Made by a program: the position numbers and the translations under genes | Notes under the pieces: generated by a model | Told to the model about the DNA's origin: nothing | Seen by the model: the letters and a program-made list of their open reading frames with translations, nothing else | Databases searched by the model: none | NCBI GenBank assembly: GCA_020532545.1 | Contig: JAJBAW010000006.1 | Coordinates: forward strand, 1,025-65,024 | From: Candidatus Cloacimonadota bacterium | GTDB lineage: Bacteria > Cloacimonadota > Cloacimonadia > Cloacimonadales > Cloacimonadaceae | Direction of reading: 5' to 3' | Length of the DNA: 64,000 nucleotides | Shown here: positions 10,545 to 59,774 of the stretch, one piece after another | How positions within the stretch are numbered: position 1 is the stretch's first letter | How the letters are laid out: every line of letters starts with the position of its first letter

Positions 10545-10865
10545 GGTTTCACCTCTTTCTGACAGGCTTTCTGCAGATTCATGGATTCCTCCGCGATATT
10601 ATTCTTTTATGGTTATTTTCCAATATCTACAGTGCGGCTAAGAGGATTGAATCTGTCAAGCAAAAAAATGGGAGAATACCTGAAAGTTACTTTTTTGGTT
10701 GACAAAAAGGGAGGTGATTATAAAAAGAGTGGGAAGATGATTATCTTTTGGAAGTGTACGGTTTAGTAGTTCAGGATATATTCTGAATTACTACATGATG
10801 TTAATAACAGCTATAGTGCCTAAACACAAAATTGACAGAATAGTAACTAATATTGAGGTTTTGAC

Positions 10866-19212: not shown

Positions 19213-19293
19213 CTCGGGATAAGCACAGCCGCGAGTAAGGCGCACAATCAAGTCCAAACTTGAACCGCCGTGTTTCAGGGTTTAAGCGCTGCC

Positions 19294-19422
19294 CTCTCCC
19301 ATTTGATGTCGTGGAGATGACGTGGAGATAGCAGGAATAAATCCTCTTATCTCCACGTCATCTTCACGACAAGCTATCCGGCTGGATATCTGCAAGTCAC
19401 AGGCTGGGAAGGGCAAAGAAAC
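19294..19422 (+). repeat. hairpin repeat family A, copy 1
   Basis: The left arm 19308-19330 pairs with the right arm 19348-19370 (22 Watson-Crick pairs plus 1 G-T), with a 17-nt loop gcaggaataaatcctct. A conserved 5' lead cccatttg and a 3' box gctgggaagggcaaagaaac flank it. Confidence 0.85.
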
Positions 19423-19607
19423 AAGATCGGCCTATACTGGAAAATGGGGGCAGGCTTGAGCGAGGAATACCTTGACAGAAAGGTCTTTTATCATTTTCTT
19501 GCAATATCAGATATAGTTTATCCAGCTTGGCTGAATTATCAGCAATCCCTGTTTATCAACGATTTTACGATCAGATAGCTCAATCAATTGAAAGAAAAGA
19601 GATTAAT

Positions 19608-20762
19608 ATGAAGAATGAATTTAGCCTAAACGAGCCCTTGCAAAACAAGATCCGAGAACTTTGCCAGTCTGTGGACGGCCCCTTTTATGTTTACGATACT
19701 GCTCATATTGTGCAGAATTGCCGCAGTTTCATGGACATCTCTTATGCCAATAAATCCATCCATTTTGCCCTGATGGCAAACGCCCAAACCCGCTTTCTGC
19801 GCATCATCAAAGACGCTGGACTGGGGGTTTTTGTGAACTCCGTGCTTCATCTGGAACTCGTGCTTTCTCTTGGCTTTAGCGGAGAAGATATCGTCTATGC
19901 AGCCTCCGCGATGGACATTGCCACCATGCGTAAAGCACAGGCCTGTGGCTGTCTGGTCATCCTGGATTCGATGAGTCAATTCCGGCTCTGGCACTCCCTT
20001 TTCCCCGAAAGCACAGCCGGCATCAGATGCAATATCGGCAGCCGGGTAGTGCCCAGGAACACGCTCGCAGGATATTTCATCGGCAAAGAAAGCCGTTTGG
20101 GGCTCACAATGGAAGAAGTGGCAGAGCTCAGCGGCCATCCCGCCATCTCAGGACTGCATTCCTATCTGGGCACGGATATTCTTGATATTGAGTACTTTAT
20201 GGAGTGCTACACCAGAATCACGGAACTGGCTGGCATGTTTCCAGAGCTAAAATTCCTGGATTTTGGAGGTGGATTTGGTTTGGGAGGGGATCTCTCGAAA
20301 AAACTGGATCTGCAGGCTTACGGAGCACAAGTAACAAGTCTAATGGACAAGCTATCTGCCCAAGTTGGCAGGTCGATCAAGCTGCTTTTGGAGCCAGGCA
20401 GGATCATCGGTGGTGCGGCGGGTTACTTCGTCTGCCGGGTCACGGATATCAAAGAACGGGAAGGACTGCGCTTGATCGGCGTGAATGCTTCCGTAGCTCA
20501 GTTTCCCAGACCGCTCTTCTACCCAGATAGCGCTTTTCATCCGGTGACTCTGCTCCAGCAAAACCCAGCCTCTAAGGATGAGCAGTATATGTCAAGTATC
20601 TATGGCTGTTCCACTTACTCCCGGGATTTCCTGGCGCGTGAGGTCCTGCTGCCCCGGGCAGAAATGGGTGACGTCGTGGTCTTGGGCTATGCAGGCTCTT
20701 ACAGCGCAGGTGCTTACACTCATTTTCTGGGCTTCCCAGAGGCGGATGAATACTATCTATGA
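19608..20762 (+). CDS. fold-type III PLP decarboxylase homologue (Orn/DAP/Arg decarboxylase family) lacking the PLP-binding Lys
   Basis: 384 aa from ATG 19608; the ORF-track TTG at 19527 is probably an over-extension. Family motifs are PFYVYD, LDFGGGFG, LEPGR and GAY. The canonical YA[VA]KAN is FALMAN here (Met codon 19773-19775). Confidence 0.75.
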   Translation: MKNEFSLNEPLQNKIRELCQSVDGPFYVYDTAHIVQNCRSFMDISYANKSIHFALMANAQTRFLRIIKDAGLGVFVNSVLHLELVLSLGFSGEDIVYAASAMDIATMRKAQACGCLVILDSMSQFRLWHSLFPESTAGIRCNIGSRVVPRNTLAGYFIGKESRLGLTMEEVAELSGHPAISGLHSYLGTDILDIEYFMECYTRITELAGMFPELKFLDFGGGFGLGGDLSKKLDLQAYGAQVTSLMDKLSAQVGRSIKLLLEPGRIIGGAAGYFVCRVTDIKEREGLRLIGVNASVAQFPRPLFYPDSAFHPVTLLQQNPASKDEQYMSSIYGCSTYSRDFLAREVLLPRAEMGDVVVLGYAGSYSAGAYTHFLGFPEADEYYL

Positions 20763-30074: not shown

Positions 30075-31358
<1,284 letters not shown>

Positions 31359-31377: not shown

Positions 31378-31413
31378 CCGCCTCTTGCATCCTTGTGAGA
31401 GGCGGTTTTCTTT
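31378..31413 (+). terminator. intrinsic terminator after eno
   Basis: The stem is ccgcctct / agaggcgg (8 bp) with a 12-nt loop, followed by ttttcttt. Confidence 0.7.
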
Positions 31414-31462
31414 GCCTTCATAAGCGCAGAAACGGCTTTCTCAGACTGGAATTCGCATTAAT

Positions 31463-31590
31463 CTTCCCCATTCGTTGTCGTAGAGATGGCGTGGAGATAG
31501 TAGGGAATAATCCTGCTATCTCCACGTCATCTCTACGGTAGCCTATGCAGGAAGAACGCTGGAACTTGCGTGCTGGGAAGGCAAAATAAC
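31463..31590 (+). repeat. hairpin repeat family A, copy 2
   Basis: The left arm 31477-31499 pairs with the right arm 31517-31539. It has the same 5' lead ccccattcg and the 3' box gctgggaaggcaaaataac. It carries a compensatory A-T pair where copy 1 has G-C. Confidence 0.85.
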
Positions 31591-31698
31591 GCAATAATCT
31601 GCTTCTGATAAAAAACGGGGAATGTCTGTTGCTCTGATTCCTTGACAAATAAGCCCTCCTCAAAAATGCTCCAACCAAAAGCAAACGAAGGATATTGT

Positions 31699-40804: not shown

Positions 40805-40831
40805 CGCAGATCACGCAGATTACGCAGATTA
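40805..40831 (+). repeat. 3 x 9-nt tandem repeat CGCAGAT(C/T)A
   Basis: The units are cgcagatca, cgcagatta and cgcagatta, read directly. They lie immediately 5' of family B copy 40840-40885. Confidence 0.9.
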
Positions 40832-40839
40832 TTGGTTTT

Positions 40840-40885
40840 CTTTATCCGGGTAAATCCGTCTGATCCGCAATATCCGTGTGACTAT
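40840..40885 (+). repeat. ATCCG-phased repeat family B, reference copy
   Basis: The sequence is ctttATCCGggtaaATCCGtctgATCCGcaatATCCGtgtgactat, with four ATCCG words at 9-10 nt spacing. Confidence 0.8.
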
Positions 40886-41887: not shown

Positions 41888-42014
41888 TATTCCTCTCCTT
41901 TCGTTTAAAGCCTTAGTGATATTATAAACAGAAATGCAAAAAAGTGGAGAACATTTCTTGTATCTCTTACGATATCTCTGAAATCAAACGATTCCGGACC
42001 TCTGTCCAGACTGC

Positions 42015-42104
42015 TCTACCCCATTTGTTGTCGTGTAGATGACGTGGAGATAGCAGGAATAATTACTCTTATCTCCACGTCATATTCACCATGACGAATG
42101 GGGG
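42015..42104 (+). repeat. hairpin repeat family A, copy 3
   Basis: The inner 14-bp stem is perfect (42039-42052 with 42070-42083) and the outer stem is degenerate. An extra outer pairing joins ccccatt (42019-42025) and aatgggg (42098-42104). Confidence 0.8.
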
Positions 42105-42358
42105 AGGCTTCAGCAGCTTATGGGATGGGCTATCTGAAATAGCGCGCCTACAGCACACTTTTTTAATGCAGGCTGGGCTGAAGCGGAGTCTTGTTTTACT
42201 CCAAAACCCGAAATAACCCTCCGATTCAAGAATTATCTTGACAGAAGCATCCTCACATTTTAGCGTATTTCCTGTATGTAAAAAGACCTTATATCTATGT
42301 AAATGAACAGGATCGTTAGATCAATGGCCGACATAATAGCCACAAAAAAGGAACAGAT

Positions 42359-58871: not shown

Positions 58872-59020
58872 TGATTCTCCTTTTGCATTTTTATACAGTA
58901 TGCCAGATTTTTGGATATACAGATAATGTCAAGAAGAAACGGATTTAATTGAGAATTGAGGATGGAGAATGGAGAATTTTGGGGCTTTCCTGAGCTTTTC
59001 CCTATTCACTTTTCACTCTT

Positions 59021-59079
59021 CTCCCTAATGCGTTGTCGTGGAGATGACGTGGAGATAGGAGGAATAAATACTGCTATCT
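59021..59079 (+). repeat. hairpin repeat family A, copy 4 (truncated)
   Basis: The left arm gtcgtggagatgacgtggagata (59035-59057) is identical to copy 1, and the loop is ggaggaataaatactgc. The right arm breaks off after tatct. Confidence 0.75.
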
Positions 59080-59317
59080 ACAGGGGAAATGGAGGATGGG
59101 TTATTAAGGGAGGATTGAGCGATGTAGCTGAGCTGTTCTGCAGTCTACTGAGATTTTTGAGTTTTCCGGTACAAAGGGTTTTGAAATTATGGCGATTTTA
59201 TAGCTTTCTATCTGATCTAATCATCGGTTTAGTCCCCAAAAGCTAAGATGCAGGAGTAAAACAGCCTTGATGACGGTCTTGAGCGGAGTTTTATCATGCT
59301 CAGAACAAGCAAAGCAG

Positions 59318-59774
59318 TTATCTGTAATAATCATCATCTGAAACCCAAAAGTCTGCATTGGAAAAATCCTGCCACACTATATAAACCAGAATAGCGACAG
59401 CAACAACAGTTATCCCAAAACCGGTGGCAGCGTAAGTTAAATTTTTTTTTACGAGATACATCGCTGAAGGAAGATATGTAACCAGAAACATAATCTGCTC
59501 CCATTGATTGCTCCAACATAATAACTTTCTGGGGATCAGGCTGAGGATCGGAAATTGCAGCAGCCATAATACCCAAAGGGCCAAAAACCAACCCACCTAA
59601 CAGATAGGCACCTTGCCCCATTGCGTCTTTTTCCCCATCAACTGCGCCTTCCTCGAAAGTGTTTTGAGCACAGGAATCTGCCTCTATCACCTGGGGGAAG
59701 TCCTGGCAAAAAGCCACGGAGCTAAAGACCACTAAGGCAAGAGTCAATAAAACAGATTTGGACACGGGTTTCAT
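59318..59774 (-). pseudogene. small membrane/lipoprotein-like gene interrupted by a frameshift in an A9 tract
   Basis: The frame from ATG 59774 (MKPVSKSVLLTLALVVFSSVAFC...SDVSRKK) and the frame ending at 59318 (NLTYAATGFGITVVAVAILVYIVWQ...) join if the A9 run (T9 on the plus strand, 59442-59450) were A8. Confidence 0.6.

What the first reader, a model, noticed from the sequence alone, without database searches (positions are those of the whole stretch)
19294..19422. Dispersed intergenic hairpin repeat family with wobble and compensatory changes consistent with an RNA element
There are four copies, all in the same (+) orientation: 19294-19422, 31463-31590, 42015-42104 and a truncated one at 59021-59079.

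The core has a conserved lead CCCATT(T/C)G(A/T)TGTCGT. It then forms a 21-23 bp stem (GTCGTGGAGATGACGTGGAGATA ... TATCTCCACGTCATCTTCACGAC) around a 17-nt loop (GNAGGAATAA(A)TCCTNN). In copies 1-2 a box GCTGGGAAGG(G)CAAA follows 32-34 nt downstream.

Hand pairing gives 22 Watson-Crick pairs plus 1 G-T in copy 1. Copy 2 has a G-T at a different position, and an A-T pair where copy 1 has G-C, which is a compensatory double change. All non-Watson-Crick pairs are G-T on the + strand. They would be C-A on the other strand, which fits selection on a + strand RNA.

In copies 1-3 the element sits about 135-180 nt upstream of a TTGACA box, ahead of + strand genes: the rSAM operon, the malic enzyme gene and a GNAT gene.
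Basis: seen in the sequence. Interest (0 to 1): 0.6.

Follow-up and report, generated by a model that had tools for sequence, protein, structure and literature searches.

The report
Promoter-seeking hairpin MITE family
The repeated hairpin is not a structured RNA but a small non-coding 'jumping gene' relic (a MITE) of Cloacimonadota bacteria, and its parent insertion sequence lands, with unusual precision, a few bases upstream of the TTGACA box of promoters.

Summary
The four copies are real. They belong to a family of about 68 copies in this 3.0-Mb Cloacimonadota genome, all intergenic. The family occurs in only 7 of 232 genomes of the phylum.

The hairpin's pairing is actively kept: 92.5% of cells are paired and 9 pairs show double changes. 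The element is longer than reported, about 130-190 nt.

- **Right end:** its last ~45 nt match the right end of a 1.83-kb insertion sequence found in sister species. That IS has a 431-aa DDE transposase with the IS4-type YREK motif, terminal inverted repeat (TIR) CAGGCATTCCCCCA and a 10-bp target duplication (TSD).
- **Left end:** it is a diverged copy of the same TIR.

The element is therefore a MITE carrying a foreign hairpin.

The IS, this MITE and two sibling MITE families end 10-16 nt upstream of a TTGACA that already exists in empty sites. Where the TSD is intact, the layout is TIR, 10-bp TSD, 3 nt, TTGACA. Six of six distinct sites of identical IS copies show this.

No Rfam family matches. 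Two copies lie outside RNA coverage, between a conserved terminator and promoter. Loop inversions and presence/absence differences point to DNA-level behaviour.

The RNA reading is not supported. Targeting of the -35 edge appears new.

The parts
19283..19458 (+). MITE copy 1. It comprises a degenerate left TIR (..GCTGCCCTCTCCCATTTG), the hairpin core at 19306-19372, an inner box GCTGGGAAGGGCAAA at 19403-19417, and a right terminal box AAAATGGGGGCAGGCTTG at 19441-19458.
   Evidence: 148.7 bits. The G012 ortholog lacks the element but keeps the promoter-like segment.
19459..19477 (+). 13-nt spacer plus the TTGACA box (19472-19477) ahead of the radical-SAM operon. This is target DNA, not part of the element.
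   Evidence: The homologous segment with TTGACG is present in G012 without the element.
31378..31415 (+). Intrinsic terminator of the upstream gene: a 12-bp stem plus a T run. It lies upstream of copy 2.
   Evidence: A terminator hairpin plus T run is kept at this position in most genus members whose region was recovered. RNA contigs end at 31351 and 31381.
31442..31628 (+). MITE copy 2. It comprises the left TIR-like end CAGACTGG..CTTCCCCATTCG, the hairpin core at about 31475-31541, an inner box at 31572-31585, and an IS right-end module ending AAAAACGGGGAATGTCTG at 31611-31628.
   Evidence: (140.6 bits). The element is present in G000, G012 and G014. It is absent in G022 and in the other 9 genus members that keep this gene pair adjacent.
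31629..31647 (+). 13-nt spacer plus TTGACA (31642-31647), the conserved promoter box of the malic enzyme gene. It pre-dates the element.
   Evidence: cTTGACAAATA is present in genus members both with and without the element.
42007..42136 (+). MITE copy 3, short form. The left TIR is CAGACTGCTCTACCCCATTTG, followed by the hairpin. The right end ATGGGATGGGCTATCTG stops at 42136.
   Evidence: 131.8 bits. It is orthologous to the G012 copy in L071.
42137..42243 (+). About 87 nt of later-inserted sequence (42137-42223), then the original 14-nt spacer (42224-42237) and TTGACA (42238-42243).
   Evidence: The G012 ortholog reads GGGATGAGCAGGCTG-ATTCGAGAATTATC-TTGACA without the extra segment.
58999..59164 (+). 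Degenerate copy 4. The left arm is intact (59035-59057) and the right arm has been replaced. It is part of a ~490-nt segment duplicated at C60:615-758.
   Evidence: 40 bits.
10660..10704 (+). Solo right-end box GCAAAAAAATGGGAGAATACCTG, a 16-nt spacer, then TTGACA (10699-10704). There is no hairpin. It sits upstream of the restriction-modification genes.

Best explanation
[quoted passage not shown] It is a non-coding element of about 130-190 bp.

**Anatomy**
- The right end is the last ~45 nt of an IS4-like insertion sequence: ..ATCAAAATCAGGTTCGA.TAAAAAAATGGGGGAATGCCTG.
- The left end (CAGAC..CCCCATTTG) is a diverged copy of the same terminal inverted repeat, CAGGCATTCCCCCA.
- The cargo is a roughly 30-bp imperfect palindrome unrelated to the IS.

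**How it moves**
It was presumably moved in trans by the 431-aa DDE transposase of that 1.83-kb IS. The IS is present in sister species and absent from this assembly.

**Where it lands**
The IS and its MITEs integrate next to sigma-70-type -35 hexamers. The staggered cut makes a 9-10-bp duplication that ends about 3 bp upstream of TTGACA. One TIR therefore sits 10-16 bp from the hexamer, with the core promoter left intact. This is a 'safe haven' that does not break genes.

**The hairpin**
Its complementarity is kept at the DNA level, either by palindrome self-correction or by an element or host function that is still unknown. It is not kept as an RNA.

**Shown and inferred**
- Shown: the anatomy, the IS partner, the target duplications, the pre-existence of TTGACA at empty sites, and the fixed spacing.
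- Inferred: trans-mobilisation, that the transposase (or a promoter-bound host factor) reads the hexamer, and that TTGACA is the -35 box.
For: **Family census**
- 68 copies, all intergenic.
- Present in 7 of 232 genomes of the phylum, with copy numbers from 1 to about 70.

**Mobility**
- G012 carries the element where G000 is empty, at C59:70703-70729 and C133:13574-13637.
- At the copy-2 site the element is present in 3 genus members and absent in 10 that keep the gene pair adjacent. The terminator and the TTGACAAATA promoter are kept throughout.

**Autonomous partner**
- L124 698-2526 is bounded by inverted CAGGCATTCCCCC boxes and a perfect 10-bp duplication ATAATCAAAA.
- Its single ORF matches PF01609 (46.6 bits) and carries YKKRWSIEEVHRQMK, which is Y(2)R(3)E(6)K.
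- Those features are the IS4 hallmarks given in PMC2266710.
- The G014 copy is 80% identical over 1828 nt.
- Its right end equals the MITE's 3' module.

**Sibling MITEs**
- Three sibling MITEs in G000 have perfect 9-10-bp duplications. Each reads TIR, TSD, 3 nt, TTGAC(A/C).

**Targeting**
- Identical IS copies (P0036) at 6 distinct, unmasked sites all have TTGACA 10-16 nt beyond the right TIR.
- In G011, 39 of 84 exact boxes are followed by an exact TTGACA at 10-16 nt. Each two-ended element holds two boxes.
- The reversed-pattern control found 0 matches in all 24 genomes.
- In G000, 22 TTGACA lie within 150 nt of the hairpin model's 3' side against 5 on the 5' side. The genomic background is 0.58 per kb per strand.

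**DNA-level behaviour**
- The loop is inverted in 7 of 68 copies.
Against: - No target duplication could be detected for the hairpin copies themselves: mean best match 6.79 against 6.76 in controls.
- Their left end is only about 70% like the IS TIR, and a conserved ~20 nt lies upstream of it, so the left boundary is uncertain.
- The G000 assembly (92.5% complete) holds no transposase copy.
- The hairpin core is better conserved between orthologous copies (88%) than the element's own flanks (64-66%). It shows double compensatory changes beyond shuffles and a G-T over A-C excess of 153 to 61. Passive decay of a dead MITE does not predict any of these, so they hint at some function of the hairpin.
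- Spacing to TTGACA varies from 10 to 16 nt.
- That TTGACA is a -35 box rests on conservation, position and one case of RNA coverage, not on mapped transcription starts.
- One copy (C150:57110) is covered by metatranscriptome contigs as a 3' UTR.
Confidence: 0.8

Rival explanations
1. A structured RNA element, either a 3' UTR stabiliser or terminator or an independent small RNA. The hairpin would be selected on + strand transcripts.
For: - Pairing is kept in 92.5% of cells, with 9 pairs changed on both sides, above all or nearly all shuffles.
- G-T pairs outnumber A-C pairs 153 to 61 on the top strand.
- In tandem gene contexts 18 copies are co-oriented and 8 are anti-oriented.
- The C150:57110 copy is covered contiguously with the adjacent gene in metatranscriptome contigs.
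- The orthologous core is conserved like coding DNA.
Against: - No Rfam match. Only generic miRNA-hairpin hits appear, at 16-27 bits against 60-100 needed.
- The element ends upstream of the -35 box.
- Copy 2 lies after a conserved terminator.
- 19 copies sit in divergent promoter regions.
- RNA contigs cover the flanking genes at depth 6-21 but not copy 2 or the C27 copy.
- The copy that is transcribed is antisense to the mRNA.
- Loop inversion occurs in 7 of 68 copies.
- Most of the G-T excess comes from 3 inherited positions. Without them the count is 70 to 48.
- No conserved promoter lies upstream.
Confidence: 0.06
2. A REPIN or REP-type element mobilised as single-stranded DNA by a RAYT (Y1) transposase.
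For: - It is a long hairpin with conserved arms and a strand-asymmetric G-T excess.
- The genome encodes four Y1_Tnp/RAYT-like genes.
- No target duplication was detected for the hairpin copies.
Against: - The RAYT-like genes are flanked by other, GTAG-type REP arrays. This hairpin appears only once near them, 1.3 kb away.
- G012 has more than 30 copies but no Y1 hit.
- The arms are not themselves short palindromes.
- The element ends match a DDE-type IS that makes 10-bp duplications.
Confidence: 0.03
3. The promoter adjacency reflects selection rather than targeting. On this reading the terminal box (AAAAATGGGGGAATGCCTG, at about -50 to -68) or the hairpin acts as a cis-regulatory or insulating module. 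Only insertions that place it correctly upstream of a -35 box are retained.
For: - Solo boxes without the rest of an element persist at promoters.
- Box-promoter units occur in 20 of 24 genus members.
- The hairpin core is conserved between species.
- About three quarters of hairpin copies are not next to a TTGACA.
Against: - Identical, therefore recent, IS copies already sit next to TTGACA at 6 of 6 sites.
- Where target duplications are intact they end exactly 3 nt from the hexamer. That is a cut-site signature which selection would not produce.
- Box counts range from 0 to 84 between sister species, unlike a conserved regulon.
Confidence: 0.12

Closest known systems
Bacterial MITEs derived from DDE insertion sequences, such as Correia elements of Neisseria and MITEAba12
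   Same: - Short, non-coding, multi-copy and intergenic.
- The ends are the inverted repeats of an IS.
- The whole element can fold into a long hairpin.
- It sits next to promoters.
- Presence and absence differ between relatives.
   Different: - Here the best conserved part is an internal foreign palindrome, not the TIRs.
- The element does not bring the -35 box. It lands a fixed distance upstream of a pre-existing one.
- No duplication is detectable for the hairpin sub-family.
IS4 family insertion sequences (IS10, IS50, IS231, IS4, IS186), as reviewed in PMC2266710
   Same: - A single ORF with the DDE_Tnp_1 domain and the Y(2)R(3)E(6)K motif.
- Target duplication of about 10 bp.
- Short TIRs.
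   Different: - Scores lie far below every NCBIfam IS4 or IS701 cut-off: 48 bits against 250, and 43 bits against 115-152.
- Sources name it only 'transposase'.
- Target choice at the upstream edge of TTGACA is not among the specificities I know of for the family. The held literature showed none.
Site-directed 'safe haven' transposition: Tn7 at attTn7, IS1397/ISKpn1/ISPpu9 in REP sequences, and yeast Ty3/Ty1 and Tf1 at polymerase start sites or promoters (recalled from general knowledge)
   Same: Integration occurs at a fixed offset from a recognised host signal, so genes are not disrupted.
   Different: - The signal here is the generic -35 hexamer of housekeeping promoters.
- That gives hundreds of possible sites per genome.
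- The recognising component is unknown.
REP/REPIN elements with RAYT transposases
   Same: A dispersed intergenic hairpin whose two arms co-vary.
   Different: - There is no RAYT association.
- The arms are direct-repeat-containing, not REP palindromes.
- The ends are DDE-type.

Membership tests
MITE (non-autonomous derivative of an IS) | Small, non-coding and multi-copy | tested here: met
   About 130-190 nt. Only 4-codon ORFs can be read in the core. 68 copies.
MITE (non-autonomous derivative of an IS) | Ends match the terminal inverted repeats of an autonomous IS | tested here: met
   The right ~45 nt are near-identical to the right end of the G014 and G012 IS. The left end CAGAC..CCCCATTTG resembles CAGGCATTCCCCCA at only about 70%.
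MITE (non-autonomous derivative of an IS) | Target-site duplication flanking the element | tested here: inconclusive
   Not detectable for the hairpin copies. There is an imperfect ~11-bp repeat at the G012 L007 insertion. The parent IS and three sibling MITEs have perfect 9-10-bp duplications.
MITE (non-autonomous derivative of an IS) | Evidence of mobility, with occupied and empty orthologous sites | tested here: met
IS4 family (for the partner IS) | DDE_Tnp_1 catalytic domain in a single ORF | tested here: met
   PF01609 scores 46.6 bits against a cut-off of 23. There is one 431-aa ORF.
IS4 family (for the partner IS) | Y(2)R(3)E(6)K motif | tested here: met
   YKKRWSIEEVHRQMK is read directly in the translation. 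The motif definition comes from PMC2266710.
IS4 family (for the partner IS) | Target duplication of about 10 bp | tested here: met
   ATAATCAAAA on both sides of the G012 copy.
IS4 family (for the partner IS) | Reaches a curated IS4 family model cut-off | tested here: not met
   The best NCBIfam hit is IS4_4 at 48.4 bits against a cut-off of 250. IS701 models score about the same. It is therefore a divergent IS4/IS701-superfamily member.
REP/REPIN with RAYT | A RAYT gene flanked by the repeat | tested here: not met
   All four Y1 genes are flanked by other repeat families.
Any Rfam RNA family | Match at the gathering score | tested here: not met
Intrinsic terminator | G+C-rich stem followed by a T run | tested here: not met
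   No T run follows the hairpin. The scan found only the upstream gene's own terminator.

The most novel reading that the evidence does not exclude
An IS4-like transposase, alone or through promoter-bound sigma-70/RNA polymerase, reads the -35 hexamer. It integrates the IS and its MITEs at a fixed offset: a 10-bp duplication ending about 3 bp upstream of TTGACA. That would be a bacterial promoter-targeting 'safe haven' strategy. Repeated hits at the same promoters would then build the stacks of different repeats seen upstream of -35 boxes in this genus. The conserved hairpin cargo could act as an insulator or roadblock between the upstream gene and the targeted promoter.
Probability: 0.55. Interest if true: 0.75.

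Novelty: new variant of a known kind. Interest (0 to 1): 0.6.

Why it matters
**It corrects a tempting misreading.** Covariation and wobble pairs in a dispersed hairpin do not show an RNA when the hairpin is the cargo of a MITE.

**It exposes an unnamed transposon family.** The IS4-like family and at least three MITE families of Cloacimonadota are common in anaerobic digesters. They insert next to the -35 box of promoters with base-level regularity.

If the targeting is intrinsic, three things follow:

- It would be a rare bacterial counterpart of promoter-directed integration in eukaryotic retroelements.
- It would be a natural way to tag or rewire promoters.
- It would be a possible tool for promoter-proximal insertion.

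**It has practical consequences for these genomes.** It explains why assemblies of this genus break just upstream of promoters. It also gives a ready computational marker of promoters in an uncultured phylum.

Tried and rejected
- **Rfam:** searched at gathering and permissive thresholds. Only generic long-hairpin miRNA models matched, far below cut-off.
- **RAYT/REPIN link:** Y1 genes exist but are embedded in other REP arrays.
- **Orphan left termini or an autonomous copy in G000:** one truncated hit at a contig end and no transposase by tblastn.
- **Target duplications for the hairpin copies:** no signal above permuted controls.
- **Orientation against GC skew,** as a proxy for replication direction and single-strand transposition: no association. 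Skew does not even track gene strand in these contigs, agreeing in only 45 of 81.
- **Outer stems:** RNAalifold did not predict the ones I saw by eye. They are simply the TIRs.
- **The element carrying its own -35 box:** rejected, because TTGACA and the spacer are present at empty sites.
- **Transcription evidence:**
  - Only assembled contigs without strand information were available.
  - Two 'RNA' runs (X29, X30) have contigs of 55-78 kb and look DNA-laden, so I did not use them.
  - The sigma-70 consensus scan found no canonical promoter at copy 2, because the -10 is weak.

Full report
**1. Observation**

The 23-nt arm matches 6 times in the window with up to 3 mismatches, against 0 in 100 shuffles. 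A covariance model built later scores copies 1-3 at 132-149 bits and copy 4 at 40 bits.

The hand pairings, the compensatory A-T in copy 2 and the downstream box are all correct. Two details need correcting. The '17-nt loop' closes further (AGGA/TCCT) to a 5-nt loop. Conservation also runs well beyond the stated ends.

**2. Census**

The window lies in a 3.04-Mb, 154-contig genome with 48.5% G+C. Iterated nhmmer finds 68 loci. With my own crude gene calls, none overlaps a gene.

Many copies lie within a few hundred bases of contig ends, so the true number may be higher. An exact-pattern scan names the hosts as Candidatus Cloacimonadota MAGs.

The family occurs in 7 of 232 genomes of the phylum. 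Six are in one genus, with about 70, 70, 26, 21, 19 and 2 candidate copies. One is in a sister genus.

**3. Is the hairpin maintained?**

Yes. Over 35 copies from six genomes:
- 92.5% of cells pair.
- 9 of 27 pairs show changes on both sides.
- All five measures exceed 499-500 of 500 shuffles and every slid control.

That alignment is fitted to the model, so it leans towards the structure.

In the 68 G000 copies the top strand has 153 G-T against 61 A-C pairs. Three inherited positions supply 83 of the G-T pairs. Without them the count is 70 to 48.

Seven copies carry the loop as its reverse complement while the flanks keep their polarity. That is a DNA inversion between the arms.

Between G000 and G012, orthologous hairpin cores are 88% identical. 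This is like the flanking, mostly coding, DNA and far above the 64-66% of the element's own flanks.

**4. Not a known RNA, and mostly not in transcripts**

Rfam gives nothing at gathering score. Permissive search gives only generic miRNA-precursor hairpins at 16-27 bits against 60-100 needed.

Copy 2 lies after an intrinsic terminator (31378-31405 plus a T run). The terminator hairpin recurs at this position across the genus, and the TTGACAAATA box is kept in every member where the two genes are still adjacent.

Metatranscriptome contigs from four sludge runs behave as follows:
- They cover the upstream gene up to 31351 and 31381, but not copy 2.
- They cover the L21 gene next to the C27 copy at depth 21, but not the element or the region upstream of TTGACA.
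- They do cover the C150:57110 copy together with the adjacent gene, where the element is antisense in a 3' UTR.

These are unstranded assembled contigs, so absence is only weak evidence.

**5. Mobility**

G012 carries the element where G000 has an empty site:
- a 328-nt insert at C59:70703-70729;
- an insert of about 165 nt at C133:13574-13637, upstream of a tRNA promoter.

At least nine loci are shared orthologously between the two species.

At the copy-2 site, 14 of the genus genomes searched keep the two genes adjacent. The element is present in G000, G012 and G014, and absent in G022 and the other 10.

**6. The link to TTGACA**

In G000, 22 TTGACA boxes lie within 150 nt of the hairpin model's 3' side and point away from it. 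Only 5 do so on the 5' side. The intergenic background is 0.58 per kb per strand.

Distances cluster tightly. In relatives they fall at -8 to -7 nt from the model end (short form) and 29-40 nt (long form). In each case a terminal box ATGGG(G)AAKGYCTG is followed by 11-16 non-conserved nucleotides and then TTGACA. The empty sites already hold the spacer and the TTGACA, so the element does not bring the box.

**7. What the box is**

The same box plus spacer plus TTGACA occurs at 15 or more G000 promoters with no hairpin nearby. There it ends two other repeat families.

With 2 mismatches allowed it occurs in 20 of 24 genus members, at 0 to 69 sites per genome. The reversed-pattern control gives 0 everywhere.

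Exact boxes often come as inverted pairs 223-277 bp apart. In G000 these pairs bound MITEs with perfect 9-10-bp target duplications:
- C42: GAGAGGAACA
- C10: CTTTTTATAT
- C129: CTTTCTTAA

In each, the duplication is followed by exactly 3 nt and then TTGAC(A/C).

**8. The autonomous partner**

A search for DDE_Tnp_1 finds transposase genes lying between inverted boxes in G012, G014 and G022.

The G012 copy (L124 698-2526, 1.83 kb) has the following features:
- TIR CAGGCATTCCCCC.
- One 431-aa ORF ending 8 nt before the right TIR.
- A perfect duplication ATAATCAAAA, then CAC, then TTGACA.
- PF01609 at 46.6 bits and the motif YKKRWSIEEVHRQMK, which is Y(2)R(3)E(6)K.

With the ~10-bp duplication, these are the IS4 hallmarks given in PMC2266710. 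Curated IS4 and IS701 models are missed by a wide margin.

The G014 copy is 80% identical over its full length. Its last 45 nt, GATCAAAATCAGGTTCGAATAAAAAAATGGGGGAATGCCTG, are the 3' module of the long-form hairpin element.

The hairpin element's left end, CAGACTGCCCTACCCCATTTG, is a diverged left TIR. The hairpin itself has no counterpart in the IS. G000 holds no transposase copy.

**9. Is the promoter adjacency targeting?**

A 58%-identical relative of the transposase (P0036) occurs as identical protein copies on many contigs. At all six distinct, unmasked sites recovered, the right TIR is followed by 10-16 unrelated nucleotides and then TTGACA.

In G011, 39 of 84 exact boxes are followed by an exact TTGACA. 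Each two-ended element has two boxes, so most elements have one end at a hexamer.

Recent copies, different spacers and duplications that end 3 nt from the hexamer all point to site choice by the transposition machinery rather than later selection. I did not find this specificity in the held literature. Sources name the protein only 'transposase'.

**10. Verdict**

The finding is a MITE of an unnamed IS4-like insertion sequence. The hairpin is its cargo. The compensatory pattern is real, but it is most simply explained at the DNA level.

Three things remain open: why the hairpin core is so well kept, how the hexamer is recognised, and where exactly the left boundary of the hairpin sub-family lies.

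Noticed in passing
G000 contigs C42:4748-4970, C129:926-1202, C10:4199-4473, C86:80760-81036: A second MITE family of 223-277 bp, with internal GAGTCCTGTAGGGACGATATTTTAGATAGCAA repeats. It has the same TIR CAGGCATTCCCCCA. Three of the four copies (C42, C10, C129) have perfect 9-10-bp target duplications. One end of each sits next to TTGAC(A/C).
   Followed up: partly
G000 contigs C28:613-844, C73:24933-25166, C6:6906, C154:49699; also window 40805-40885: The ATCCG-phased repeats flagged elsewhere in this window belong to a third family. In other contigs they end in the same terminal box, 12-14 nt upstream of TTGACA.
   Followed up: partly
window 10660-10704: A solo right-end box, GCAAAAAAATGGGAGAATACCTG, then a 16-nt spacer and TTGACA, with no hairpin. 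It lies upstream of the restriction-modification genes.
   Followed up: partly
G000 contigs C89:21928-22572, C57:896-1540, C127:44444-45190, C23:17345-17818: Four Y1/RAYT-like transposase genes. Each is embedded in arrays of other short dispersed repeats, including GTAG-tagged REP-like palindromes such as GTAGGCGGAACGGGAGTCCGCCACTAC.
   Followed up: partly
window 42137-42223: About 87 nt of extra sequence lies between the right end of copy 3 and its original spacer. It is absent from the G012 ortholog, so it is a later insertion at the same spot.
   Followed up: no
window 58999-59490 and G000 C60:615-1100: Copy 4 and about 490 nt of its flank are duplicated at 79% identity on another contig.
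   Followed up: no
window 19213-20762 versus G012 (L022): In G012 the radical-SAM operon does not follow the second gpmA-like gene. Only a ~60-nt promoter-like segment is shared, so the operon sits at a synteny break.
   Followed up: partly
proteins P0004, P0005, P0039: Close relatives of the transposase are filed under Bacteroidales MAGs (81% identity) and Exilispira MAGs (58% identity). This could be horizontal spread or mis-binning.
   Followed up: no
G011, G015 and G012 contig starts: Many contigs in sister MAGs begin 60-240 nt upstream of a terminal box. The assemblies therefore break inside these repeats, just upstream of promoters.
   Followed up: no
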